Source of the DNA: a virus
Taxonomy: Duplodnaviria; Caudoviricetes
Virus record (IMG/VR): IMGVR_UViG_3300032038_000001
Location: 64,001-128,000 of that record
DNA length: 64,000 nt
Strand: one strand, 5' to 3'
Part shown: positions 899 through 39,885 of the stretch, piece by piece
How positions within the stretch are numbered: the first letter of the stretch is position 1
How the letters are laid out: every line of letters begins with the position of its first letter
Program-made: the position numbers and the translations under genes
Notes under the pieces: model-generated
What the model was told of the DNA's origin: nothing
Databases searched by the model: none
What the model saw: the letters and a program-made list of their open reading frames with translations, nothing else

Positions 899-1240
899 GT
901 GATAAATATGGCATCATCAAGGAATGTCTACCAGCAGAAAACAGTTGTTTCAGTACCTAAACAAGAACTGATGGAAAATGTAGTTCTTAATACAAATTTA
1001 GGTAAGAAAGAACTAAGAATCGTCTTGTTTCTTCTTACGGAACTAGATGGTTGGTCAGAACCAATAAACGGTGGTTCTGACCCAAAAAACTTTAAAGTCA
1101 TAGATTTCAAGAGGATTGCAAAAACTCTTGATATGGACACAAAAGATGTTAAAAAATCTATAAAGAGTCTGGTACGTGAATGGATTATCGAACAAGGTAA
1201 CAGTAATTCTGGTACTGATGGTTATAGATTTAGATTTTAA
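899..1240 (+). CDS. winged-helix DNA-binding protein (putative)
   Basis: The segment DFKRIAKTLDMDTKDVKKSIKSLVREWIIEQG has an HTH-wing pattern. RBS AAGGAG; start is 899 or 908. Confidence 0.55.
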   Translation: MINMASSRNVYQQKTVVSVPKQELMENVVLNTNLGKKELRIVLFLLTELDGWSEPINGGSDPKNFKVIDFKRIAKTLDMDTKDVKKSIKSLVREWIIEQGNSNSGTDGYRFRF

Positions 1241-1248
1241 AAAAAGGA

Positions 1249-1701
1249 GTGATTAAAAAAATGAATGAGCCGCCATCTAAAAAAATTATGCTTTTTGGTT
1301 CAAGAAGTATAAACTTCTTAACAGACGAAGTAAAAGCAATTTTATTCGCACATATGTATCGTGGAGATCACATATTAATAGGTGACTGTATTGGTGCTGA
1401 TTACAGTGTTCAAAAGTTTTTGTTTGAACGTAATTACCCTTTCGTCACGGTATATACCAGCGGTCATATGCCTAGACATATAGCTAACGAGCATTGGTCT
1501 GTGAAGGCTGCCAAAGTCAAGCTTGAGGATTATGAGTCCGAGAGCGAATACTACAAAGTAAAAGATATGTTAATGGTATCAGATTGCGATGAAGCAATTG
1601 CAATATGGAACGGGGAATCCCGCGCTAGTAAAAATAATATAGATACATTAATTGCTTTGAATAAAAGTAACATTGTATTTATATATCCACAGTTGGTTTA
1701 A
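1249..1701 (+). CDS. SLOG-superfamily (DprA/YspA-like) nucleotide-binding protein
   Basis: IMLFGSRS, GDCIGAD and MVSDCDEAIAIWNGESRAS match SLOG-type motifs. Confidence 0.65.
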   Translation: MIKKMNEPPSKKIMLFGSRSINFLTDEVKAILFAHMYRGDHILIGDCIGADYSVQKFLFERNYPFVTVYTSGHMPRHIANEHWSVKAAKVKLEDYESESEYYKVKDMLMVSDCDEAIAIWNGESRASKNNIDTLIALNKSNIVFIYPQLV

Positions 1702-1726
1702 TAATTAAACAGAAAGGAAAATAGAT

Positions 1727-2139
1727 ATGTATAAAACTTTTAATTTTAAAAATGAAACAGAAGAGAAGAAGCTCTCGTTCATGTTGTAGATAATACAGTA
1801 CGAACTGTATTTTATGATAAAAACAATAAACCATATAATGTGGGAATAATCATCCCTCATGAAGAGTTTTTTAATGCAGAGATGACTTTTGCTTATGAAC
1901 AGCAGCCTGAACTGGACTTTATTATCGGGCTTGGTCCGAGAAAAAGAACAATCTCATTGAGGACTTCTAAACCCGATGTGAATGTTGGGATTATAGCAAA
2001 AGAAACATTTGGTGGGGGTGGTCATGCTGCTGCTGCAGGTGGACGGCCTGGTCATCCGTTATTCGTTAAACTAATAACTGAATATTATGACGGAATGGAT
2101 GGTAAAGTCATTCCTCCAATATATTCATCAGTTGAGTAA
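1727..2139 (+). pseudogene. DHHA1-domain protein, frameshifted near 1756-1787
   Basis: The C-terminal ISLRT...FGGGGHAAAAG is the DHHA1 signature. RBS GAAAGGAA and the ATG at 1727 are one base out of frame with the 1840-2139 ORF. Confidence 0.55.
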
Positions 2140-2145
2140 AAAAAA

Positions 2146-2691
2146 ATGAAAATATATTTGTTTTATAAAATAGGAGACGATGTAGGCATATATAACAAAC
2201 CAGTTATATATGCCTACACATCTCATAAAGAACTAGCCAAAAAATTTTGCCAAATGAGAAATATGGATTTATTCCTTGAAAAAATTGAGAATATATCCAA
2301 AAATGAGTATAACGCCTATACTCAAAGTTTACACAGTCGTGGTAAAGAACTGATAGAAACAACTCTTATTACTAACGGTGATTCTTATAATGATATAAGA
2401 AGAATTCCGATGGTTATCACACAACACGAAGAAGAGGTTGTTTGTTTAAGAACAGATGATGTGTATGCTGAGATAGGTAAACATACTAATTTTTGGTCAG
2501 GGTATTTTAATGATGAATTAAAGGATGCCCTCGATAAATTATACTATTTCGATTTAATGGCATTTTCATCTTCAATGGAACTATCGCTTGTTTCATTTTA
2601 TGATGAAAACAAACCGTTAAAACCATGTATCGAAATTGATCAATTGCAATATTTCATTTTTCATTTCGGTAATACAATGAAAGTTAAGTAA
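2146..2691 (+). CDS. hypothetical protein
   Basis: 181-aa ORF followed by a terminator. Confidence 0.75.
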   Translation: MKIYLFYKIGDDVGIYNKPVIYAYTSHKELAKKFCQMRNMDLFLEKIENISKNEYNAYTQSLHSRGKELIETTLITNGDSYNDIRRIPMVITQHEEEVVCLRTDDVYAEIGKHTNFWSGYFNDELKDALDKLYYFDLMAFSSSMELSLVSFYDENKPLKPCIEIDQLQYFIFHFGNTMKVK

Positions 2692-2700
2692 TTTTAATTT

Positions 2701-2737
2701 GAGGGGTGATTATAGATTTTCACCCCTCTTTTTTATT
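2701..2737 (+). terminator. intrinsic terminator
   Basis: GAGGGGTGA/TCACCCCTC stem followed by a T-tract. Confidence 0.75.
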
Positions 2738-2754
2738 GAAAGGATGATAAATAA

Positions 2755-3246
2755 ATGGGAAATATATTATCTAAAATTAATTCATCGGATGTAATTAACC
2801 CCTTTTCAAAAAATAATGAAAAAAATGCAGCAAAAGTTATAAATAGTGATCCAATTGCACAATCTAATATTATTAATGAAACTGGAACAGCAAGTAAACT
2901 ATTAAAGACTGTTGCGGATGGTCAGGTAATTAAATCGGCAATAAATGCTGGGCTATCTAATCCAGATATTCCTGTTGTAAAGGAATATGGAATACATGAA
3001 AATAGTGAATGTAAAGAAGATGATGCTATATTTATAGATTCACGAGATGACAACAATTTATATCATATAATTGCTGATAATAGTGCAGAAATATGGAAAT
3101 ACGATCCTCTTAAAACACATGGAAATATACGTGATGATGATGAATTCGTGAAATGCTGCGTAGAATATCTAAAAGAATTGAATACAGATGAACAGGAACG
3201 TATACTACGTAGAATACAACAAGAATTAGATAGAGATAACAAATGA
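2755..3246 (+). CDS. hypothetical protein
   Basis: 163-aa ORF with RBS GAAAGGA. Confidence 0.75.
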   Translation: MGNILSKINSSDVINPFSKNNEKNAAKVINSDPIAQSNIINETGTASKLLKTVADGQVIKSAINAGLSNPDIPVVKEYGIHENSECKEDDAIFIDSRDDNNLYHIIADNSAEIWKYDPLKTHGNIRDDDEFVKCCVEYLKELNTDEQERILRRIQQELDRDNK

Positions 3247-3303
3247 TAATATCTATATCAATATACGTATATTAAAAAGATAAATATATATATTATTTTT
3301 AAT

Positions 3304-3432
3304 GTAATATATAGGTGAGTAAAAACATCTATATGTTATAAAGAAAACATATACGGTTCTTTACCACATGTCAAGTGGATTTCATTACCCGTAGTCAAAA
3401 GAAATGAAAAAAGTACATAGGAGGTACTTAAA
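3304..3432 (+). ncRNA. structured 5' leader, copy D (5' hairpin + pseudoknot + SD-loop hairpin)
   Basis: Pairings: GTAATATATAGGTG/CATCTATATGTTAT; TACGG/CCGTA; CCAC/GTGG; TTTCATT/AATGAAA; AAGTAC/GTACTT around ATAGGAG. The GTCAA linker is present. Architecture matches 25886, 27322 and 39381. Confidence 0.65.
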
Positions 3433-4368
3433 ATGGAAGTAAAAGTAACAAAAATAGTAAGAGGGTCAATTTTCACAGTCGATGACCACAACCCGACCGG
3501 CGATATCCCATCACACAATTATATCGTCATAAACATGGGTGCTGACAGCATACCATGTGCTAAAGTAATGTGTATGGGGATAACCTCATGCCGGAACGCA
3601 TCACCGACAAATATTTTTCATGACATGATGCCTATAGTCATGAGTAATGGCTATAAATGTTATGTCGATACAACGAAAGTTTACTTCTTTAGACCCCAGG
3701 AGGTAAACTTAAATAGATTTAAGGGCAGTATTGATCTATTGATAGTAGAAAAGCTGTTAAAAGTTTTTCTAATACGGGTGGGTCTACTGCCTTTAGAGGA
3801 GTATTCAGTATTAAAGAAGGAACTGGGGTTGATAGATATATCGACCCCACAGAAGAACAAGTCTCCTCTAACTTCTGTAGATGAGGAAGACACGGTTTCT
3901 GTAACTTCTTCCTCATCTACAGAATCTTCTAAGATTTCTTCATCTGATAAAGATGAAAAGAAAGTCAAAGAAGAAAGTAAAAAGGATGAAATAGCAACAC
4001 CATGGTACCCACGGTTGATAGCTGAGTATACAGACGAGCAGCTCGAAAGAGCTCTTGTCATACTGAAATCTGGCGACGCCGAATGGTGTGCCAGAGAGAT
4101 GCGTTGCAACAGTCACAGCGCAGTAAAACATAAATTAAAGAGGATTACTGAGGAGATTAATCTAAGAACTCCTCAAAAATTCTCTGAAAAATTCCAGAAA
4201 TTCGGCTCAAAACCGGAATTCTGGGAAAAAAGTGACTTAGAGCGCTTCTCTAAGCTCTTTACAAGTGACAGAGAACAACTCGAAGTCGAAAGTGGTCAAA
4301 AGACCACACAGTTGTTCAAAATATTTGATACAGTCAAAAAGGAATTGAAAAGGAGGGGAATAAGATAA
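3433..4368 (+). CDS. protein with N-terminal PemK/MazF-like domain, Ser/Glu-rich linker and helical C-terminus
   Basis: RGSIFTVD..P.G....HNYIVI....VMCMGITS resembles the PemK pattern RGDI.WVD..P..G.E..K.RP.LV.....V.VAPITS. Confidence 0.5.
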   Translation: MEVKVTKIVRGSIFTVDDHNPTGDIPSHNYIVINMGADSIPCAKVMCMGITSCRNASPTNIFHDMMPIVMSNGYKCYVDTTKVYFFRPQEVNLNRFKGSIDLLIVEKLLKVFLIRVGLLPLEEYSVLKKELGLIDISTPQKNKSPLTSVDEEDTVSVTSSSSTESSKISSSDKDEKKVKEESKKDEIATPWYPRLIAEYTDEQLERALVILKSGDAEWCAREMRCNSHSAVKHKLKRITEEINLRTPQKFSEKFQKFGSKPEFWEKSDLERFSKLFTSDREQLEVESGQKTTQLFKIFDTVKKELKRRGIR

Positions 4369-4371
4369 TAT

Positions 4372-4419
4372 AAAAATAAAAGATGGATGATTTATAAATC
4401 ATCCATCTTTTATTTTTTT
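4372..4419 (+). terminator. bidirectional-type intrinsic terminator
   Basis: AAAAGATGGATGATTT/AAATCATCCATCTTTT flanked by A and T tracts. Confidence 0.75.
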
Positions 4420-4457
4420 ATATTTTTTACCACACATCAATAAAATGTTGATTTGGT

Positions 4458-4474
4458 TATATATTATTTTTTTG
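4458..4474 (+). promoter_or_regulatory. early-type promoter TATATATTAT-N6-G for non-virion RNAP beta-C
   Basis: Exact motif, with RBS GAAAGGAA and ATG 4511 downstream. Confidence 0.65.
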
Positions 4475-4510: not shown

Positions 4511-6303
4511 ATGCCAGAAGTACAAAAGTATTCATTAACAGACGAATTACAGAAAGCAAACGAAAAGTATCAGGGATCTGCGGCATTACTTGGTATGTCG
4601 GTTTTAACAACTCCCGGATATATAAATTCGATGCGTTCAGTAATGTTTACTGCTCACCTTAAGCAGTTCTTGAATCTTCAGAATCCTGAGTTTCCTTTTG
4701 TTTTCACCAATGCTGAAAATGTTGTAGGAAGACATAGTTCTGGATATAAGAAAGCAAAAAATAAGTTGAAAGTGTACAGAAAGGTAGCCAAATACGATGA
4801 GATATTGGATACACCCAATATCTATAAGCTGTTTGTATTCGATACTGAAAAGAAGTGTTATGATGTTATTACACGTAAATCTGTTGAAGATTTAACAGAA
4901 CATTTCGGTTTTGAATACAACAACGATGTTATTGACTCGTTTGACGAGGGTGATACAATTAATAAAGGCACAGTACTTTATAAGTCAACATCGTATGATG
5001 AAGACATGAACTATGCATATGGTAAGAATGTTACTATGATGTATACTCTTGACCCTTACACATCAGAAGATGCTGCTGTTGTAAGTAGAAGTCTTGCTGA
5101 ATCAATGACATCTATTGAAACAGAAGTAATCAGTATCGGTCTTAATGATAATGATTACTTTGTTAATTTACAAGGAGAAAAATATTCTCTTATTCCCGGA
5201 AAGAAAGGAAAGTATAAACCTCTTCCTGATATAGGAGAAGTTGTTAGTGGTCATCTTGCCGCAATAAGACGTCAGTTTAATAATCAGCTGTTATTCGATT
5301 TTAATGCTGACAGTCTTAATCAGATTCATGAGGGTGACCTTGTTTATTATATTGGTAATGGTAATGAAGTAATTGACTATACAATATATAATAACAATGA
5401 GAATATTGTTGATAATGCTTTTACAGAGCAGATTAATAAATATCTCAACGGACAGAATAAGTATTATCAGGAAATTCTTGAAGCATGTGAAGAGATAATA
5501 AAATCGGGATTTGAATATAGTCGTGAAATAGATTATCTCTATAAACGTGCAAAAGATATGCTTGATAGTAAGAAAAAGTGGCGAGAAGGCGAGAATGCGT
5601 TTTCTAACATGGTAATCGAAATACAAGTTAAGAAAGTTGTTCCTCTTGCTAAAGGGCAGAAAATAACCGGTCGTTATGGAAACAAATCAGTTATTTCGGA
5701 AATACGAGAAGATGAAGATATGCCGTTTACTGAAGATGGTAGACGAGTTGATTTACTTCTCAATTTGTTAGCGTTGATAAATCGTACAACATCATTTCCA
5801 ATGTACGAAATCATATCAACATCTATTGCATACAAGGTACGTAATAGAATGAAGGAGTTAACCACTTATAATGAAAAAGAAGAACTTCTTTTTGATTTCA
5901 TCAAACAGTACAATGAAGTTGAATATGAAAGGATGTGGAAACTTTATTGTGATATGAGTGCTGATGAAAAGAAAGATTTTATAGATGATGCTATAGAAAC
6001 TGGAATTTATCTTCATCAGCCACCTCTGTGGGAAACAAAACCTATTTTCCATAGAATACAAGGTATACTTCAAAAGTATGATTGGCTTAAACCAGATAAT
6101 GTCTATATCAATAAATGGGGTCGTAAGATGAAGATTCTTAATAATTATTGGATAGGCGATATGTATGTTCTTAAACTCAAGCAGACTGATAGAAAAGGAT
6201 TTATAGTACGAAGCACTGGTGCAATAGATACCAAAGGTCTTCCTACTAAAAGTTATAAGTCAAGATCACACCTTGAGCAGTATTCCGGTAACGCGATCCG
6301 CTT
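4511..6303 (+). CDS. rpoB: non-virion RNA polymerase beta subunit, C-terminal half, exon 1
   Basis: Motifs SEDAAVVS, GQKITGRYGNKSVIS, VDLLLN and GDMYVLKLKQ; exon ends at NAIRF. Spliced to 7496 it gives RFGEFE (cf. RFGEME) and a 749-aa product. Confidence 0.9.
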
Positions 6304-6433
6304 TAACTACACCAGAGCGGAAATACTAGTAATAGTATTTAGTAAAACTCTTTTAATTGCTGGGAAATCTCTCTGAGACAATCAGCAGCGAAGTTAAAAT
6401 ACTCTAAAAACTCTTTTATTATTTAAATAATAT

Positions 6434-6445
6434 AACAGAATTATA
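6434..6445 (+). promoter_or_regulatory. late-type promoter AACA-N6-TA for intron endonuclease
   Basis: AACA GAATTA TA lies upstream of RBS GGAG and ATG 6473. Confidence 0.5.
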
Positions 6446-6472
6446 AAAATATAATAATGGAGTTGATTATAT

Positions 6473-7273
6473 ATGACGGATATTAATTTAGATGAAAATC
6501 GAAATTATAATGAAGAGATATGGCACAAAATAATATATGATGATTTAAAAGGGAACTATTCAGTTAGTAATATGGGTAGAGTTAGAAATGACACTACTGA
6601 AAAGGTTTTAAAACCATGGGTTACTAATAAAGGATATTTAGCTATATACTTACCAGCAAAGAAAAACACTGGAAAAAAAGTATGTAGATTTACTATTCAT
6701 TGGTTGGTCTTAGCTATGTTTACTGATGAACATGAAAAAATATACGATTCTAGATGGATAGTAAATCATAAAGATGGTATTAAACACCATAGCTATTTAT
6801 CAAATTTAGAATGGGTCACTTATAGTGGAAATTATAATCATGCAATTGAAAACGGACTATGTAATAATTATGGAGATGAAACAAAAAATTCATCACATAC
6901 TTCAGAAGAAGTAAGAAAAATTGCAGAATTATTAGTTCTTGATAAATCATACCAAGAAATTATTGAAATTATGGGATATGAAAATAATTTTAATACACGA
7001 AATTTTCTCAGTAGTATTGGAACAAGAACTAAGTGGAAGAATATAACAAAAGATTATAATTTTAAAACACATACGAAATCAACTATATATAAATATTCCG
7101 AAAAAACTATTCATAAAATATGCAAATGTATAGAAGACGGTTATAGGAATTATGAAATAATTAATGAGCTTCATATAACAGATAAAAAAGAAGCTAAAAA
7201 ATATTTATCTCTCATTTATAGAATTAAAAAGCATACAGCTTTTAAAGAAATATCTAAAAAATATAATATGTGA
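6473..7273 (+). CDS. NUMOD4/HNH homing endonuclease (intron-encoded)
   Basis: EIWHKI..NYSVSNMGRVRN (NUMOD4), HWLV and VNHKDG...NLEWVT (HNH). The ORF is looped out by AAAATACTC/GAGTATTTT. Confidence 0.92.
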   Translation: MTDINLDENRNYNEEIWHKIIYDDLKGNYSVSNMGRVRNDTTEKVLKPWVTNKGYLAIYLPAKKNTGKKVCRFTIHWLVLAMFTDEHEKIYDSRWIVNHKDGIKHHSYLSNLEWVTYSGNYNHAIENGLCNNYGDETKNSSHTSEEVRKIAELLVLDKSYQEIIEIMGYENNFNTRNFLSSIGTRTKWKNITKDYNFKTHTKSTIYKYSEKTIHKICKCIEDGYRNYEIINELHITDKKEAKKYLSLIYRIKKHTAFKEISKKYNM

Positions 7274-7495
7274 GTATTTTAAAACGTTCAACGACTATCG
7301 AAAGGGTAGTTATAAGAGAAATCTTATAATGAGTAACTGAGTAGAGTAGTGCCTTTATAGGTTAGTATTATAGTGAGATTAGCTGTAAGTAAATCTATTA
7401 AAACGAAACGGAGAGCTCCTGTATTATGGTAACAATAATATGGGATGATGATATAGTCTAATCTTTATAGCGATATAAAGTAGTAGTAAAAAATG

Positions 7496-7952
7496 TGGTG
7501 AATTTGAGACTCTTAACTTCACAATAGGAATACTTCCTGATGATATAGCGTTATTCAATGCTATGTATAGAACATCAATTAAGGGAAGAAAAGACCTTGT
7601 GAAGTTACTATTCCAGCCATCTGATGGAGATTCTATACAGAAAATTGATTCATCATATACATCTCGTGTTGCTGAGATATTTAATGTATATCTTAAGTCT
7701 CTCTCTATTGATTTAGAGTTTGTAGATGAAGATAATGTTATTTATTCATATGATGATACAACTCTGACTAATCATGAACTTAATGGAGTTGAGTATTTTT
7801 GTACAGATTATCAGTTCCTTCTTATTAAAAGAAGAGCTGAAATACGTGAAGAAATTCTTTCAGAGAATGCCATGTTGGCTGAAGAAGAATTGGAAAGAAT
7901 GATTGACGAGGAACTTAAGAGACGGAACTATCTTACTGGTTCTGTAGATTAA
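7496..7952 (+). CDS. rpoB: non-virion RNA polymerase beta C-terminal half, exon 2
   Basis: GEFETLNFTIG...AMYRTS...IFNVYLKSLSIDLEF resembles the beta C-terminus FNVL..EL.SLG. Confidence 0.88.
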
Positions 7953-20690: not shown

Positions 20691-23600
20691 ATGGCTATGG
20701 CTAAAGGATATGTTAGTACTACATACCAAATCACAAGTACAACACAACTCTCACCATCTATTGGCTATGATGGTGATATAGCATTTTTAGTTGATGATAG
20801 AAATAAGAGAGCAATTGCTCAATTTTTTAAAAGAGATGGAACATGGCAGCGGGTTAATAATAACGCAACTGCTAAAGAAATAGATGCCACTGAACTATAT
20901 GAAATGATTCTGGAAAATGGTCAACGTATAACTGATTTAAATCGTGGTATGCAAAATTATGAAGAAACAACTGATGGTACTTTAAACAATCATGCCGCAA
21001 CATTAGTTAATCATACAACATCAATAAATGAACATGAAAATGAAATTACAGAAATACAGGAAATCATTGAACATTTAGATCCTAGTGGTGGTGGCGTTGG
21101 TAAAAGCACTACTGGTGTGGAGTATGATGTTGATGGGACTTCTTATACTGGAGATGTTGGTGCTGAAGTTTTTAATAATTATGAAGATAATAAAGGTATT
21201 GGAAAATATTCACATACTGAAGGTAAAGGTAATATAAGTATTGGGCTTGCCGCTCATACAGAGGGCTATCAAACAAAAACTTCTAATACTGGCGCACATG
21301 CTGAAGGAATAATGGGTAAAGCCACTGGTATAGGTGCTCATGTTGAGGGTGCATCAACTACAATTACTGTTGATGATGAACCCGTTGAAGTGGGGTCTGA
21401 GGCATCAGGTAAAGGCTCTCATGTTGAAGGTATTTATAATATTACAGCAGCTGATGCATCTCATGCTGAAGGTAGTAGTAACCGGATTATTAGTAATGCT
21501 TCTCATGGATATAATGGATTTGCAGCACATATAGAAGGTGATAATAACGTTATTACTAATTCGGATAGTGCACATGCTGAAGGAACTCATAATGTCATAA
21601 CCGATGCCGCATATTCTCATGCTGAAGGCAATCTCACTACAGTTACTGGTTTAGGTTCTCATGCTGAAGGATATAAATCTACCGCAAGTGGTGAGTATTC
21701 ACATTCTGAAGGAAACTATACTACAGCTAGTGGAGCGGCATCTCACGCTGAAGGAAGTGGAACTAGTTCAAAAGGTATTCAATCTCATGCCGAAGGTAGT
21801 GGTTGCCAATCTATTTCTCCTTATTCTCATGCCGAAGGTGCTGGAACTACAGCAGGATCAGTTTCACAAACAACCGGTAATCCCGTAGGTGCAGGTCAGC
21901 ATGCCGAAGGCGGTGGTTGTAAGGCAATCGGAAGTTATTCACATGCAGAAGGTAGTGGTTCAACTGCAAATAGTGATTACTCACATGCAGAAGGTAACGC
22001 TAGTACAGCTAGTGGTTTAGGTTCTCATACTGAAGGATATAAATCTGCTGCAAGTGGTGAGTATTCACATTCTGAAGGAAGCAGTACTACTGCTAGTGGA
22101 GCTGCATCACACTCCGAAGGAAGTGGAACTAGTGCAAAAGGTACTCAGTCTCATGCCGAAGGAGGCGGAACAACTGCTAGTGGAGGTCAGTCTCATGCCG
22201 AAGGAGCTGGTTGTCAAGCTATCTCTCCTCAATCTCATGCTGAAGGTCTTGGAACTGTAGCGGGATCAGTTTCACAAACAACTGGTAACCCTGAAGGTTC
22301 CTGTCAGCACGCTGAAGGTGGTGGTTGTAAGGCAATCGGAAGTTATTCACATGCAGAAGGTAACGGTTCAACTGCGAACGGTGCTCAATCTCATGCCGAA
22401 GGTAACATTAGTACAGCTACTGGTATGGGTTCTCATGCTGAAGGAAGCGGAACACATGCAAATGGTGCTCAATCTCATGCTGAAGGAAATGGTTCAACCG
22501 CGAATGGCGATCAATCTCATGCCGAAGGTGGTGGAACGACTGCCACTGGTATGGGTTCGCACGCTGAAGGTGGTGGATGTCAGGCTATTTCTCCTCAATC
22601 TCATGCCGAAGGTGGTGGAAGTATAGCAGGATCAATTTCACAAACAACTGGCAAGCCCATAGGTTCCTGTCAGCATGCTGAAGGCGGTGGTTGTAAGGCA
22701 ATCGGAAGTAATTCTCATGCTGAAGGATTCGGTTCAACTGCGAATGGAGATTATTCACATGCTGAAGGTTACATCAGTACAACTACTGGTGTAGGCTCAC
22801 ATGCTGAAGGCGGTGCTTGTCAGGCAAATGGAAATTATTCTCATGCCGAAGGTAACGGTAGTACAGCTACCGGTATGGGTTCTCACGCCGAAGGATCAGC
22901 AACAAATGTAAACGGTGACTGTTCACACGTTGAAGGTTCTGGAATAACTGCAAATGGTAACTTTATTCATGCTGAAGGTGCAGGTTATACAGTTACTGGC
23001 GGTTCGTCTCATATCGAAGGTACACTACATACTGAATTAACTGCAAACATATCTCATATCGAGGGTACTGCGCATACAGGTAACATGCATATATCTCATG
23101 TTGAAGGCGCAAATAATACAGTGAATAACGAATATAATCATGTTGAAGGAACCGAAAATATAGCATATTCAAAATCAGATCGTGTTCATATTGAAGGTGA
23201 TCGAAACCATAATAATGGTGACAGAATACACATCGAAGGTATGTATAATGTTGTTAACGACAATGATGTATGTGATCATGTAGAAGGGTATAATAATGAA
23301 ATTAAGGGTATAGTAACAACCACAACTGTAGAACGTGATGAAGTACGAAAAAAAACACCATCATATTGTCATGTTGAAGGTAGTAGAAATATAATAAAAA
23401 CTAATCAATATGGTGATGATTCATCATTAGCAAGTCATCGTTATAGTCATATAGAAGGCTACCAAAATATAATTGAGGGTGGTCATGGAAGCCATGTTGG
23501 AGGAGCACAGAATATATCAGCATCTAGATGGCAGACAGTAATCGGTGTTGGTAACTTACCTGATACAAATAATGAATTTGCATTTATTATAGGTAATGGT

Positions 23601-23888
23601 TCTGCTCCTGATCCAGTAACAGGTGAACTAACTAACCAAGAAGAAATATCAGATACTTCGCCAGCTGCAGGTGAATCAGATACTATTGATTATATAATAC
23701 AAAATAAACGTAGTAATGCGTTTACTGTTAGTTGGGATGGTACTGTTAATATTGCTACCGCATTATATGTAAATGGCCAGCAAATCACACCTGGTGGCGG
23801 CGGTGGCGGTGGAATGGACGATGCTGTTATTGCCGATAATATAACTAACAGTGAAGTTGACGACATGATAAATGAAATTTGGGCATAA
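20691..23888 (+). CDS. tail fibre / adhesin with coiled coil and YadA-head-like 14-aa SHAEG beta-roll repeats
   Basis: Dozens of SHAEGxxTxAxGxx repeats, followed by FAFIIGNG...RSNAFTVSWDG. Confidence 0.8.
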   Translation: MAMAKGYVSTTYQITSTTQLSPSIGYDGDIAFLVDDRNKRAIAQFFKRDGTWQRVNNNATAKEIDATELYEMILENGQRITDLNRGMQNYEETTDGTLNNHAATLVNHTTSINEHENEITEIQEIIEHLDPSGGGVGKSTTGVEYDVDGTSYTGDVGAEVFNNYEDNKGIGKYSHTEGKGNISIGLAAHTEGYQTKTSNTGAHAEGIMGKATGIGAHVEGASTTITVDDEPVEVGSEASGKGSHVEGIYNITAADASHAEGSSNRIISNASHGYNGFAAHIEGDNNVITNSDSAHAEGTHNVITDAAYSHAEGNLTTVTGLGSHAEGYKSTASGEYSHSEGNYTTASGAASHAEGSGTSSKGIQSHAEGSGCQSISPYSHAEGAGTTAGSVSQTTGNPVGAGQHAEGGGCKAIGSYSHAEGSGSTANSDYSHAEGNASTASGLGSHTEGYKSAASGEYSHSEGSSTTASGAASHSEGSGTSAKGTQSHAEGGGTTASGGQSHAEGAGCQAISPQSHAEGLGTVAGSVSQTTGNPEGSCQHAEGGGCKAIGSYSHAEGNGSTANGAQSHAEGNISTATGMGSHAEGSGTHANGAQSHAEGNGSTANGDQSHAEGGGTTATGMGSHAEGGGCQAISPQSHAEGGGSIAGSISQTTGKPIGSCQHAEGGGCKAIGSNSHAEGFGSTANGDYSHAEGYISTTTGVGSHAEGGACQANGNYSHAEGNGSTATGMGSHAEGSATNVNGDCSHVEGSGITANGNFIHAEGAGYTVTGGSSHIEGTLHTELTANISHIEGTAHTGNMHISHVEGANNTVNNEYNHVEGTENIAYSKSDRVHIEGDRNHNNGDRIHIEGMYNVVNDNDVCDHVEGYNNEIKGIVTTTTVERDEVRKKTPSYCHVEGSRNIIKTNQYGDDSSLASHRYSHIEGYQNIIEGGHGSHVGGAQNISASRWQTVIGVGNLPDTNNEFAFIIGNGSAPDPVTGELTNQEEISDTSPAAGESDTIDYIIQNKRSNAFTVSWDGTVNIATALYVNGQQITPGGGGGGGMDDAVIADNITNSEVDDMINEIWA
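21190..23500 (+). repeat. 42-bp (14-codon) coding tandem repeats with larger internal duplications
   Basis: TCTCATGCYGAAGG recurs. The block at 21648 is duplicated at 22014, and the GS(V/I)SQTTG(N/K)P insert occurs at 21855, 22263 and 22629. Confidence 0.9.
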
Positions 23889-25513: not shown

Positions 25514-25885
25514 TTAGCGTCTGGGGAAACCTAACAGGCTAATATCCCAACCGAATATTTCCTGATAGATATGACGTTTTCTCTCGAAAGGTACGTCGTT
25601 AAACGTACCCTTCTTAGCATAGCAATATATAGTGTCTGTAAGACTATCTATAATATCATTGAGCTGGTCATTTGCCCAAACTCCAGTTGACTCAAGGTAT
25701 GCTAGCTGATAGACGTTAGGAAGTAATGCCGTTTTGAACAGCGGCATTAACTTATCTTCATTGTTGTCGATATACAGCAAAGATACCGATGATGTGCATT
25801 TCGCAAAAAGTTCGGTATATGTTGTAGCATCTTCATCAACGAGAGAGTTAATAGCTGTGAGAATGTTCTTTACTACGGTATTCAT
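25514..25885 (-). CDS. hypothetical early protein behind structured leader
   Basis: 123-aa ORF with RBS AAGGAGG; terminator at 25464-25509. Confidence 0.8.
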   Translation of the reverse strand: MNTVVKNILTAINSLVDEDATTYTELFAKCTSSVSLLYIDNNEDKLMPLFKTALLPNVYQLAYLESTGVWANDQLNDIIDSLTDTIYCYAKKGTFNDVPFERKRHIYQEIFGWDISLLGFPRR

Positions 25886-26048
25886 ATCATTAGTCCTCCT
25901 TTAGAACTATACTTTGTTTTCTTGACAAGAGTAAACAAAGGAACATATAAAATGTTCGAAAAACTCTTTTAATAATTTTTATGTAATCTTCGTTAATAAT
26001 TAACTCGACGCCTTCGCTATGAAGTTGAGGTAATTATTTATTGATTAC
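25886..26048 (-). ncRNA. structured 5' leader, copy C
   Basis: Cap motif AACTTCATAGCGAAGGCGTC (26026-26007). Pairings AAGAGT/ACTCTT, GAACA/TGTTC, CTTTGTTT/AAACAAAG and TAGTTC/GGACTA; GTCAA linker. Promoter TATATACTAT-N6-G. Confidence 0.75.
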
Positions 26049-26715: not shown

Positions 26716-26931
26716 ATATTTTCAACTCCTTTCTCATTGATTAGACCGTTAAGTGATGTAAGAATGTTCTTCATTAACAATTAGCTCGACACAGTTATTA
26801 TAATATTTGTTACTGAGATAGAATATAATTATAATAATTGATTTTATGGAAACACAATTATATAAAAAAAAGAGCGAGTGTTGCAATTCGCAACACTCGC
26901 TCTTATATAGCCTTATCGTAGCTGCATTATA

Positions 26932-27321
26932 TTATATGACAGTCTTAAGTGCAGATATGATAGCTTCTGCGTTGTCGAGGATGATATCCTCAATATCATG
27001 AGTAGTACTAACATCAGGACCCCCAAACCCGTCGTTGAGGTCATTGACTTTAACTCGGATTATCATGGATCCTGTTGCGGACCCCTCCTTATTTGTGGTT
27101 GTTATTTCACAATCTCCAAAACTATCCAAGTGGGTGCTGTTGGGAACTACAGTATGAAGACGGATTAAACAGTTATTGGTCATAAGAATTTTCTTATTTC
27201 TCCATCCAATAATTTGGTTTTCTCCGTCATAGATTTCTGTACTGGTCTGAAATTCAGTTTCTGCTATGAGCGATATTAACGCTCCAACTGCAACTGCAGA
27301 AATCTTGTTGAAAGTATACAT
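26932..27321 (-). CDS. hypothetical early protein behind structured leader
   Basis: 129-aa ORF with RBS AAGGAGG; hairpin at 26871-26903. Confidence 0.8.
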   Translation of the reverse strand: MYTFNKISAVAVGALISLIAETEFQTSTEIYDGENQIIGWRNKKILMTNNCLIRLHTVVPNSTHLDSFGDCEITTTNKEGSATGSMIIRVKVNDLNDGFGGPDVSTTHDIEDIILDNAEAIISALKTVI

Positions 27322-27488
27322 ATGATTACCTCCTTGTAATCATACTCTGTTTTATTGACTGTGGTAAACAGAAGGAACATAGAAGTTCCGAGAAACCACA
27401 TTGTTGTTTTTATGTAATAAGTTATATATATAACTTAACCTGATACCTTCGCTATGAAGTTAGGGTAAGATATTATATATTTTATTAC
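27322..27488 (-). ncRNA. structured 5' leader, copy B
   Basis: Cap motif AACTTCATAGCGAAGGTATC (27461-27442). Pairings TGTGGT/ACCACA, GGAAC/GTTCC, TTCTGTTT/AAACAGAG and TATGATTAC/GTAATCATA around AAGGAG; GTCAA linker. Promoter TATATATTAT-N6-G (27504-27488). Confidence 0.75.
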
Positions 27489-27583: not shown

Positions 27584-27654
27584 TGGGGTATCGCCAAGAG
27601 GTAAGGCAACGGACTTTGACTCCGTCATCATCAGTTCGAATCTGGTTACCCCAA
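27584..27654 (+). tRNA. tRNA-Gln (anticodon TTG), CCA not encoded
   Basis: Acceptor TGGGGTA/TACCCCA; D-arm GCC AAGAGGTAA GGC; anticodon arm ACGGA CTTTGAC TCCGT; T-arm ATCAG TTCGAAT CTGGT. Late motif at 27555-27566. Confidence 0.93.
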
Positions 27655-39380: not shown

Positions 39381-39552
39381 GTAATAAGATAAATGATATC
39401 TTAATCTAACTTCATAGCGAAGGCGTCAGATTAAGATATTATATAGATTATTACATAAACAGCAGTAAGTGGTTTCTCGGAACTTTTATACGTTCCCTCT
39501 GTTTACCACAGTCAATAAAACAGAGTATAAGTACAATAAGGAGGTACTTATT
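39381..39552 (+). ncRNA. structured 5' leader, copy A
   Basis: Cap motif AACTTCATAGCGAAGGCGTC (39408-39427) sits inside TTAATCT/AGATTAA. Pairings GTGGT/ACCAC, GGAAC/GTTCC, CTCTGTTT/AAACAGAG and TAAGTAC/GTACTTA; GTCAA linker. Promoter TATATAATAT-N6-G (39365-39381). Confidence 0.75.
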
Positions 39553-39885
39553 ATGACATTAACAGAAAAAATGGAATTAGCAGAGTTGATTCGTGGTATC
39601 GTTCGTGAAGAGCTGCAGAGAGTGCTTGCGGAAAATAATAAAACTGTAGACAGCGGCACTACTACAACTACCATCGGCAGCACTGAAAATGCAAAGGCTT
39701 ATTTGAAGAAAATAAGCCCGATGATGAGTGAGTATGTGAGCCGATATACCCTCTATGATATCAGCAAAGAAATGAAGTCAGTACTTACAGCTGACGAAAT
39801 AAAGTACGTCATTATCCACCTGGACTCAAATAACTTGTGTAGCAAGAAAAACAGCAGAGACCTAAGTGAGATGCTGTTTAAGTAA
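39553..39885 (+). CDS. hypothetical early protein behind structured leader (110 aa)
   Basis: ATG 39553 follows AAGGAGG; terminator at 39889-39932. Confidence 0.8.
   Translation: MTLTEKMELAELIRGIVREELQRVLAENNKTVDSGTTTTTIGSTENAKAYLKKISPMMSEYVSRYTLYDISKEMKSVLTADEIKYVIIHLDSNNLCSKKNSRDLSEMLFK

What the first reader, a model, noticed from the sequence alone, without database searches (positions are those of the whole stretch)
3304..4368. PemK/MazF-like ORF directly behind a pseudoknot leader
Seen: the N-terminal ~120 aa follow a PemK/MazF-like pattern (RGSIF.VD..P.G, H.YIVI, GITS), the usual RP is replaced by HN, and no adjacent antitoxin ORF is evident. Established: type III ToxN/AbiQ RNases have a MazF/Kid fold and are inhibited by pseudoknot RNAs encoded just upstream. 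Inference: the protein could be an early host-shutoff RNase, or an inactivated RNA-binding regulator, whose ligand is the leader pseudoknot. In that case it might autoregulate and control or protect the other three leader-bearing mRNAs. Alternatively the pseudoknots could decoy a host type III toxin.
Basis: inference. Interest (0 to 1): 0.72.

Follow-up and report, generated by a model that had tools for sequence, protein, structure and literature searches.

The report
Jumbo-phage MazF-like protein without antidote
A family of giant uncultured phages keeps, right beside its RNA polymerase gene, a protein shaped like a bacterial RNA-cutting toxin but with an altered active site and no antidote gene; the knotted RNA in front of it is real but is a general leader shared by ten early genes, not its dedicated antidote.

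Summary
Observation confirmed. ORF 3433-4368 (311 aa) has an N-terminal MazF/PemK fold: its AlphaFold model (pLDDT 89.5) matches type II MazF/Kid/CcdB (Z 10.5), far better than type III toxins (Z 4.3-7). His28 replaces the catalytic Arg and Thr/Ser51 is kept; both hold in 40/40 homologs down to 20% identity. Two three-helix repeats follow. In an AR9-like 250-kb phage it is a stand-alone early-type transcription unit with no antitoxin ORF. In 8 distant phage lineages it sits directly upstream of the RNA polymerase beta gene. The leader is a real, covarying H-type pseudoknot plus ribosome-site hairpin, but it has ten copies before unrelated early genes, no tandem repeats and no terminator. Seven distant orthologs lack it, including one phage that carries the motif elsewhere. 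So the type III toxin-antitoxin reading fails. Best reading (about 45%): a phage-owned His/Thr MazF-variant RNase for early RNA turnover, working like T4 RegB; a non-catalytic nucleic-acid-binding regulator is next (25%). No activity is shown. The scan had already described this leader in the same genome (e1-5642577) and a MazF-plus-extra-domain orphan in another jumbo phage (e1-954151).

The parts
3284..3296 (+). Early (virion RNAP-type) promoter motif, 12/13 match to the AR9 early consensus; predicted start at 3303-3304 (G is 7 nt after the motif, 6 in AR9)
   Evidence: sequence; AR9 consensus from PMC5312081; inference
3304..3339 (+). 5' hairpin of the leader; shorter than and unlike the ~75-nt hairpin of the other nine copies
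3352..3409 (+). H-type pseudoknot with a hairpin in loop 1: stem 1 = 3352-3356 with 3389-3393; inserted hairpin 3364-3378; stem 2 = 3380-3386 with 3403-3409; conserved GUCAA loop 3394-3398
   Evidence: covariation; 81/81 nt invariant in close relatives
3411..3429 (+). Ribosome-site hairpin with most of the Shine-Dalgarno (3419-3424) in the loop; present in all ten leaders (-4.6 to -6.8 kcal/mol against a median of -1.5 for 104 other starts)
3433..4368 (+). 311-aa ORF, single copy in the genome, under purifying selection (dN/dS 0.13-0.20 N-domain, 0.05-0.06 C-domain)
3433..3837 (+). MazF/PemK-fold domain (residues 1-135); H28 (3514-3516) at the catalytic Arg position and T51 (3583-3585) at the catalytic Thr position; Y30, I50, P67, N72, G98 also invariant
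3844..3996 (+). Variable Ser/Glu/Lys-rich linker, probably disordered (indels; dN/dS 0.5-0.7 where measurable)
   Evidence: disorder is inference
4015..4362 (+). Two homologous three-helix repeats (W..EL..F...Y ... E..RR), Myb/SANT or HTH-like in pattern; no significant family or fold match
   Evidence: repeat against repeat 97% probability; HTH lead, score 0.78 only
4372..4417 (+). Intrinsic terminator (20-bp stem, T tract) closing the single-gene unit
4511..6376 (+). Non-virion RNA polymerase beta C-terminal subunit, first exon, with its own early-type promoter near 4455-4470; the fixed downstream neighbour of the family
25883..25979 (-). Leader copy B, before a 123-aa orphan
27319..27411 (-). 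Leader copy C, before a 129-aa orphan
39457..39555 (+). Leader copy D, before a 110-aa orphan

Best explanation
The gene is a clade-wide early gene of AR9-like jumbo phages that encodes a domesticated MazF-variant endoribonuclease. Shown: type II MazF fold, His at the Arg position, Thr/Ser kept, two helical repeats, fixed position before the RNA polymerase beta gene, promoter-like motif and terminator of its own, no antitoxin ORF. Inferred: it is made early by the virion polymerase and cuts single-stranded RNA with a His/Thr pair; the lytic phage needs no antitoxin; it helps remove host mRNA or retire early phage mRNA, as T4 RegB does; and the C-terminal repeats aim or restrain it by binding nucleic acid or a partner. 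The pseudoknot leader is a separate, portable cis element of ten early mRNAs (translation or stability control) that sits before this gene in one sub-clade only.
For: Fold match to MazF, Z 10.5, with the top 11 hits all MazF/Kid/CcdB-type toxins. H28 in 40/40, T/S51 in 40/40, D18 and N29 in 39/40, at 20-35% identity, in register with MazF R29/T52. Arg25/Thr48 are the essential MazF residues (PMC8634880). His is a common RNase acid/base (own knowledge). Purifying selection. The beta gene follows 132-192 nt downstream in 8 distant lineages, and distances of the two proteins correlate (Spearman 0.66, Mantel p 0.006). Leader absent in 7 distant orthologs and present in ten copies before unrelated genes. 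Host mRNA falls during AR9 infection (PMC5312081). RegB is the precedent for a phage RNase that cuts early mRNAs and its own ribosome site (PMC3014915).
Against: No activity data. R-to-A kills MazF, and I found no characterised MazF with His at this place. The fold also serves a non-RNase (CcdB, Z 9.4). The phage shows no strong sense-strand avoidance of any 4-6-mer, and UACAU is not depleted (ratio 1.02), so there is no sign of a self-avoided cut site. AR9, PALS2, phiR1-37 and LPJP1 have no homolog near their beta gene and tblastn finds none among cultured phages, so the AR9 host-mRNA drop cannot be credited to this family. The register with MazF rests on a weak profile alignment.
Confidence: 0.45

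Rival explanations
1. Non-catalytic regulator: the MazF fold is a dimerisation or RNA-binding module and the two helical repeats bind DNA or the phage RNA polymerase, making the protein a transcription or early-to-late switch factor linked to the neighbouring polymerase gene.
For: Catalytic Arg is lost; fixed place next to the beta gene; the C-domain is the more constrained part among close relatives (dN/dS 0.05-0.06), basic (+6) and HTH-like by features; no k-mer avoidance.
Against: An invariant polar H-N-Y and T/S-S at exactly the catalytic positions is hard to explain without chemistry. The HTH assignment is not significant. The protein diverges far faster than the polymerase (27-35% against 62-87% identity), which is unlike a stoichiometric subunit.
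Confidence: 0.25
2. The leader is the protein's ligand: it binds or cuts the ten pseudoknot leaders (for example the loop-displayed ribosome site), including its own, forming a feedback regulon. Compatible with either of the two readings above.
For: The leader lies directly before the gene and is 81/81 invariant while synonymous sites in the gene differ at 42-48%. All ten leaders show the ribosome site in a hairpin loop. Precedents: T4 gp32 pseudoknot operator and RegB self-cleavage (PMC3014915). Both phage lineages known to carry the motif also carry the gene.
Against: Leader absent before 7 of 7 distant orthologs, including L010 which has the motif before another gene. No motif in 85.7 kb of G001, which has the gene (36% complete). 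Copy A is the most divergent of the ten. The downstream spacer is also 99% conserved. Genome-level co-occurrence says little for a clade-wide gene.
Confidence: 0.15
3. Counter-defence decoy: a dead MazF mimic that poisons host MazF through mixed dimers or otherwise disturbs host MazEF.
For: MazEF acts in phage defence in Bacillus and phage phi3T proteins bind and inactivate MazF (PMC10769878). The gene has the most diverged alleles of its neighbourhood (pS 0.42-0.48 against 0.09-0.15 for core genes), as host-facing genes often do.
Against: Kept at one locus across all eight distant lineages; only 10-17% identity to host-type MazF; the helical repeats and invariant His are unexplained; pN stays low.
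Confidence: 0.1
4. Type III-like toxin-antitoxin pair, or pseudoknots as decoys of a host ToxN/CptN.
For: An H-type pseudoknot lies upstream of a MazF-fold gene; CptN is a moderate structural match (Z 7.0).
Against: No tandem array; no terminator between RNA and gene; fold nearer type II; no Rfam type III antitoxin match even at E 10; the RNA is a leader joined to ribosome sites of ten unrelated genes; no locus co-occurrence.
Confidence: 0.04

Closest known systems
Type II MazF/PemK/Kid endoribonucleases (S. aureus MazF 4MZM, B. subtilis MazF 4MDX, M. tuberculosis MazF-mt1/mt3, Kid 1M1F; Pfam PF02452)
   Same: Fold (Z 9-10.5, TM about 0.6), beta-strand order, G11, P-T loop, I-T-S motif with the catalytic Thr.
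   Different: Catalytic R-P replaced by invariant H-N; 10-17% identity; below the Pfam cut-off; extra linker and two helical repeats; no MazE; clade-wide early gene of a lytic jumbo phage.
Phage PemK-like proteins with C-terminal extensions (BFVD A0A8S5UCH8, A0A8S5UF15, Brochothrix A9 gp171; ESM Atlas viral cluster TM 0.74)
   Same: MazF fold plus extra C-terminal part, in phages.
   Different: Uncharacterised; 10-20% identity; not found by the family profile; whether they keep R-P was not checked.
Type III toxin-antitoxin systems ToxIN, AbiQ, CptIN (PMC5086642)
   Same: Distantly shared fold; H-type pseudoknot RNA upstream of the gene.
   Different: No repeat array, no intervening terminator, single copy fused to the ribosome site, same RNA before nine other genes, weaker fold match.
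T4 RegB and T4 gene 32 operator (PMC3014915)
   Same: Works-like models: antitoxin-free early phage RNase that cuts its own ribosome site; pseudoknot in a phage mRNA leader.
   Different: RegB has another fold (RelE-like; own knowledge); the gene 32 pseudoknot is a single operator for a DNA-binding protein. Only analogies.
Rfam pemK leader motif and cow-rumen-4 (RF02948)
   Same: pemK motif: structured RNA before PemK genes in Bacillota (recalled, not verified in a paper). cow-rumen-4: similar ribosome-site hairpin loop (19.8 bits against a cut-off of 48.5 on copy D).
   Different: No Rfam family reaches its cut-off; the pemK motif does not appear at E up to 10 on leader A or D.

Membership tests
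MazF/PemK type II toxin | MazF/Kid/CcdB fold | tested here: met
   Foldseek E 9e-5, VIA Z 10.5, rmsd 3.5 over 109 residues
MazF/PemK type II toxin | PF02452 match above the curated cut-off | tested here: not met
   Query none; best homolog 20.7 bits against 23.1
MazF/PemK type II toxin | Catalytic Arg (R25/R29) | tested here: not met
   His in 40/40
MazF/PemK type II toxin | Catalytic Thr (T48/T52) | tested here: met
   T 37, S 3 of 40
MazF/PemK type II toxin | Adjacent co-transcribed protein antitoxin gene | tested here: not met
   Single-gene unit; upstream neighbours vary among orthologs
MazF/PemK type II toxin | Homodimer with RNase activity | not testable with these tools
   Needs biochemistry
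Type III toxin-antitoxin system | Tandem array of antitoxin repeats upstream | tested here: not met
   No array in 3247-3432
Type III toxin-antitoxin system | Intrinsic terminator between RNA and toxin gene | tested here: not met
   None between 3304 and 3432
Type III toxin-antitoxin system | Toxin of ToxN, CptN or TenpN family | tested here: not met
   No Pfam, NCBIfam or PADLOC hit; Z 4.3-7.0 against 10.5 for MazF
Type III toxin-antitoxin system | H-type pseudoknot RNA upstream | tested here: met
   Covariation; single copy only
Type III toxin-antitoxin system | RNA and toxin gene travel together | tested here: not met
   7 of 7 distant orthologs lack it; nine copies precede other genes
Type III toxin-antitoxin system | RNA neutralises the toxin and is processed by it | not testable with these tools
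   Needs experiments
Myb/SANT or HTH DNA-binding domain (C-terminal repeats) | Significant profile or fold match | tested here: inconclusive
   Three-helix repeats with Trp pattern; Myb E 0.17 in 1 of 22; no fold match above Z 5; feature score 0.78
Rfam RNA families (pemK motif, ToxI and others) | Score at the family cut-off | tested here: not met
   Only a tRNA in the window; weak chance-level rows at E up to 10

The most novel reading that the evidence does not exclude
A His-catalysed MazF-variant nuclease domesticated by jumbo phages recognises the ten pseudoknot leaders, including its own, and cuts or is held by them: a RegB-like feedback regulon in which a type II-fold toxin is governed by a cis pseudoknot RNA.
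Probability: 0.12. Interest if true: 0.8.

Novelty: new variant of a known kind. Interest (0 to 1): 0.5.

Why it matters
MazF-fold proteins are known as toxins paired with antitoxins. This is a family of at least 40 sequences that swapped the essential Arg for an invariant His, gained two helical repeats, has no antitoxin gene, and is held beside the RNA polymerase gene throughout a jumbo-phage clade. If active, it shows a new catalytic solution in the fold, offers a new sequence-specific RNase, and is a candidate for how these phages clear host or early mRNA. The negative result also matters: a pseudoknot before a MazF-fold gene does not make a type III system.

Tried and rejected
Rfam at cut-off and at E 10: nothing real. 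Pfam, PHROG, NCBIfam, PADLOC and PDB sequence searches: no significant hit for the query. Homodimer prediction of the N-domain: no verdict, score 0.14, not used as evidence. Fold searches with the C-domain: nothing above Z 5, which does not show a new fold. Codon-shuffle k-mer test: no clear self-avoided RNA site; UACAU not depleted. Each leader holds one UACAU (the B. subtilis MazF site), but in nine it is the paired 3' arm of the 5' hairpin and the copies are paralogs, so I rejected it as evidence. Nine bacterial pattern hits are chance; the model rejects them. Cultured phages: no homolog. Whole-genome co-occurrence could be run only on G000 and the partial G001 (errors in 69, 135). The supplement describing the pemK motif was not held. 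P0011's locus came without DNA, so its downstream gene was not identified. L034 has only 52 nt upstream, so its leader is untestable.

Full report
Setting. The window is bases 64001-128000 of a 250,395-nt virus record. The gene after the finding is an RNA polymerase beta C-terminal subunit interrupted by an HNH-type gene, about 31% identical to the non-virion polymerase gene g089 of Bacillus phage AR9. So this is an uncultured AR9/phiKZ-like jumbo phage. Its relatives come from metagenomes; the host is unknown, and rumen origin rests on an earlier AI note and my recall of the sample numbers.

The transcription unit. A 12/13 match to the AR9 early promoter lies at 3284-3296 (consensus in PMC5312081), predicting a start at 3303-3304. 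A 129-nt leader follows, then the 311-aa ORF and a 20-bp terminator. The polymerase gene has its own similar promoter motif. There is no co-transcribed small ORF that could be an antitoxin. Early expression is inferred; no reads could be obtained.

The protein. Family scans give nothing for the query. Searches found ten close homologs at 75-99% and about thirty distant ones at 20-37%. An AlphaFold model of residues 1-137 (pLDDT 89.5) matches MazF proteins by Foldseek (best E 9e-5) and by VIA-align: the top eleven rows are MazF, Kid, CcdB or similar toxins at Z 8.2-10.5, then CptN 7.0, ToxN 4.3-4.7 and AbiQ 4.5. Phage PemK-like proteins with C-terminal extensions are the nearest viral models. 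A profile alignment with E. coli MazF and ChpB puts H28 on R29 and T51 on T52; it is weak alone but agrees with the fold. Across 40 sequences H28, Y30, I50, P67, N72 and G98 are invariant, position 51 is always Thr or Ser, and D18 and N29 are in 39. Arg25 and Thr48 are essential in MazF (PMC8634880). The Arg has thus been replaced by one fixed residue that can do acid-base chemistry rather than left to drift; I read this as an altered, probably live, site, which is inference. After a variable linker come two homologous three-helix repeats with a Myb/HTH-like pattern but no significant match. Both domains are under purifying selection.

Genomic place. In eight distant lineages (L010, L011, L012, L013, L024, L026, L028, L034) the polymerase beta gene starts 132-192 nt after the gene. 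In two of them a UvsX-like gene lies upstream, the slot between g086 and g089 in AR9. Distances between N-domains follow those between polymerases (Spearman 0.66, Mantel p 0.006, nine loci), as expected for vertical descent. The four cultured relatives checked have no homolog in that region, and tblastn finds none in cultured phages. Among close relatives the gene has the most diverged synonymous sites of its neighbourhood (pS 0.42-0.48 against 0.09-0.15 for helicase, polymerase and chaperonin), which suggests old alleles or exchange and would fit a host-facing role.

The leader. It has a 5' hairpin, an H-type pseudoknot with a hairpin in loop 1 and a conserved GUCAA loop, and a hairpin that shows the ribosome site in its loop. 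On nine copies, 9 of 18 pairs change on both sides, three of them in the pseudoknot stem; no shuffle or slid control reaches this. Most of that signal comes from copies A and B. A covariance model finds ten copies in the genome, all ending at the start codon of a short gene; none of the other nine genes matches the family profile, though three of them resemble each other. Copy A is the most divergent, yet its 81-nt core is invariant in close relatives. The U-rich loop 1 could form triples with stem 2; this was not tested. No Rfam family matches. The scan had already described this leader (e1-5642577).

Do gene and leader belong together? Close relatives (78% or more) keep leader A. None of seven testable distant orthologs has it: their upstream regions are plain promoter-plus-ribosome-site spacers or an overlapping gene, and an unfiltered model search finds nothing there. 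L010, whose polymerase is 83-87% identical, carries a clear copy (52 bits, E 1e-7) before a different gene and none before its ortholog. An 85.7-kb partial genome with the gene has no copy. The leader is therefore a portable element found before this gene in one sub-clade, not an obligatory partner. Type III systems need a repeat array and a terminator before the toxin gene (PMC5086642); both are missing.

Mechanism. Most likely (0.45) the protein is an antitoxin-free phage RNase used early, in the way T4 RegB is, which cuts early mRNAs and its own ribosome site (PMC3014915). Against this, no cut site is visibly avoided in the phage coding strands and no His-type MazF is known to me. Next (0.25) is a non-catalytic regulator that uses the fold as a scaffold and the repeats to bind DNA or polymerase. 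Action on the leaders in trans (0.15) is compatible with either and is the most interesting open case. A host-MazF decoy (0.10; precedent PMC10769878) and a type III-like pair (0.04) are less likely.

Verdict. A real and undescribed variant of the MazF/PemK superfamily, not a member of type II or type III toxin-antitoxin systems by the tested features. The exciting link to the pseudoknot is weakened by the comparative data but not excluded. New variant of a known kind; interest 0.5.

Noticed in passing
G000:C1 12371-14412, 131610-133658 (outside the window): Six more leader copies in two clusters on the minus strand; three precede related proteins with an N-terminal hydrophobic segment (311, 177 and 185 aa).
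   Followed up: partly
L010:7128-7219: A divergent copy of the leader in another phage, with stem 1 like copy B, before an unrelated gene; extends the motif beyond this species.
   Followed up: partly
window 1261-4368: Block of genes with raised synonymous divergence (pS 0.2-0.48) between conserved helicase and polymerase genes; ORF 1840-2139 is only the DHHA1-type C-terminal part of a gene that is 349 aa in relatives (L001, L003, L004), so it may be broken or partly deleted here.
   Followed up: no
window 6377-7562: Polymerase beta gene is split by an insertion with a NUMOD4/HNH endonuclease ORF (6473-7273), probably a group I intron; absent in L001, L012 and L034, at other sites in L003, L024 and L026.
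   Followed up: no
whole genome G000: GATC is depleted about twofold in coding sequence (z -18.6), suggesting avoidance of a host restriction enzyme and DNA that is exposed to it.
   Followed up: no
window 39531-39550 and other leaders: The ribosome-site hairpin resembles the 3' hairpin of Rfam cow-rumen-4 (below cut-off); possibly related phage leaders.
   Followed up: no
all ten leaders: Each has one UACAU (B. subtilis and S. aureus MazF site): 95-101 nt upstream of the start in nine, inside the ribosome-site hairpin in copy A. Probably a by-product of the hairpin pairing.
   Followed up: partly
window 20691-23888: 1065-aa ORF with about 30 copies of a 14-residue (42-nt) repeat, likely a tail-fibre or adhesin-type protein.
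   Followed up: no
window 26716-26860 (-): Remnant resembling the 5' part of the leader cassette before a 187-aa methyltransferase-like ORF; not detected by the model.
   Followed up: no
window 899-1240: 113-aa ORF with weak winged-helix hits after the RecD-like helicase; 98% conserved in close relatives.
   Followed up: no
window 27584-27654: A single tRNA gene, next to leader copy C on the opposite strand.
   Followed up: no
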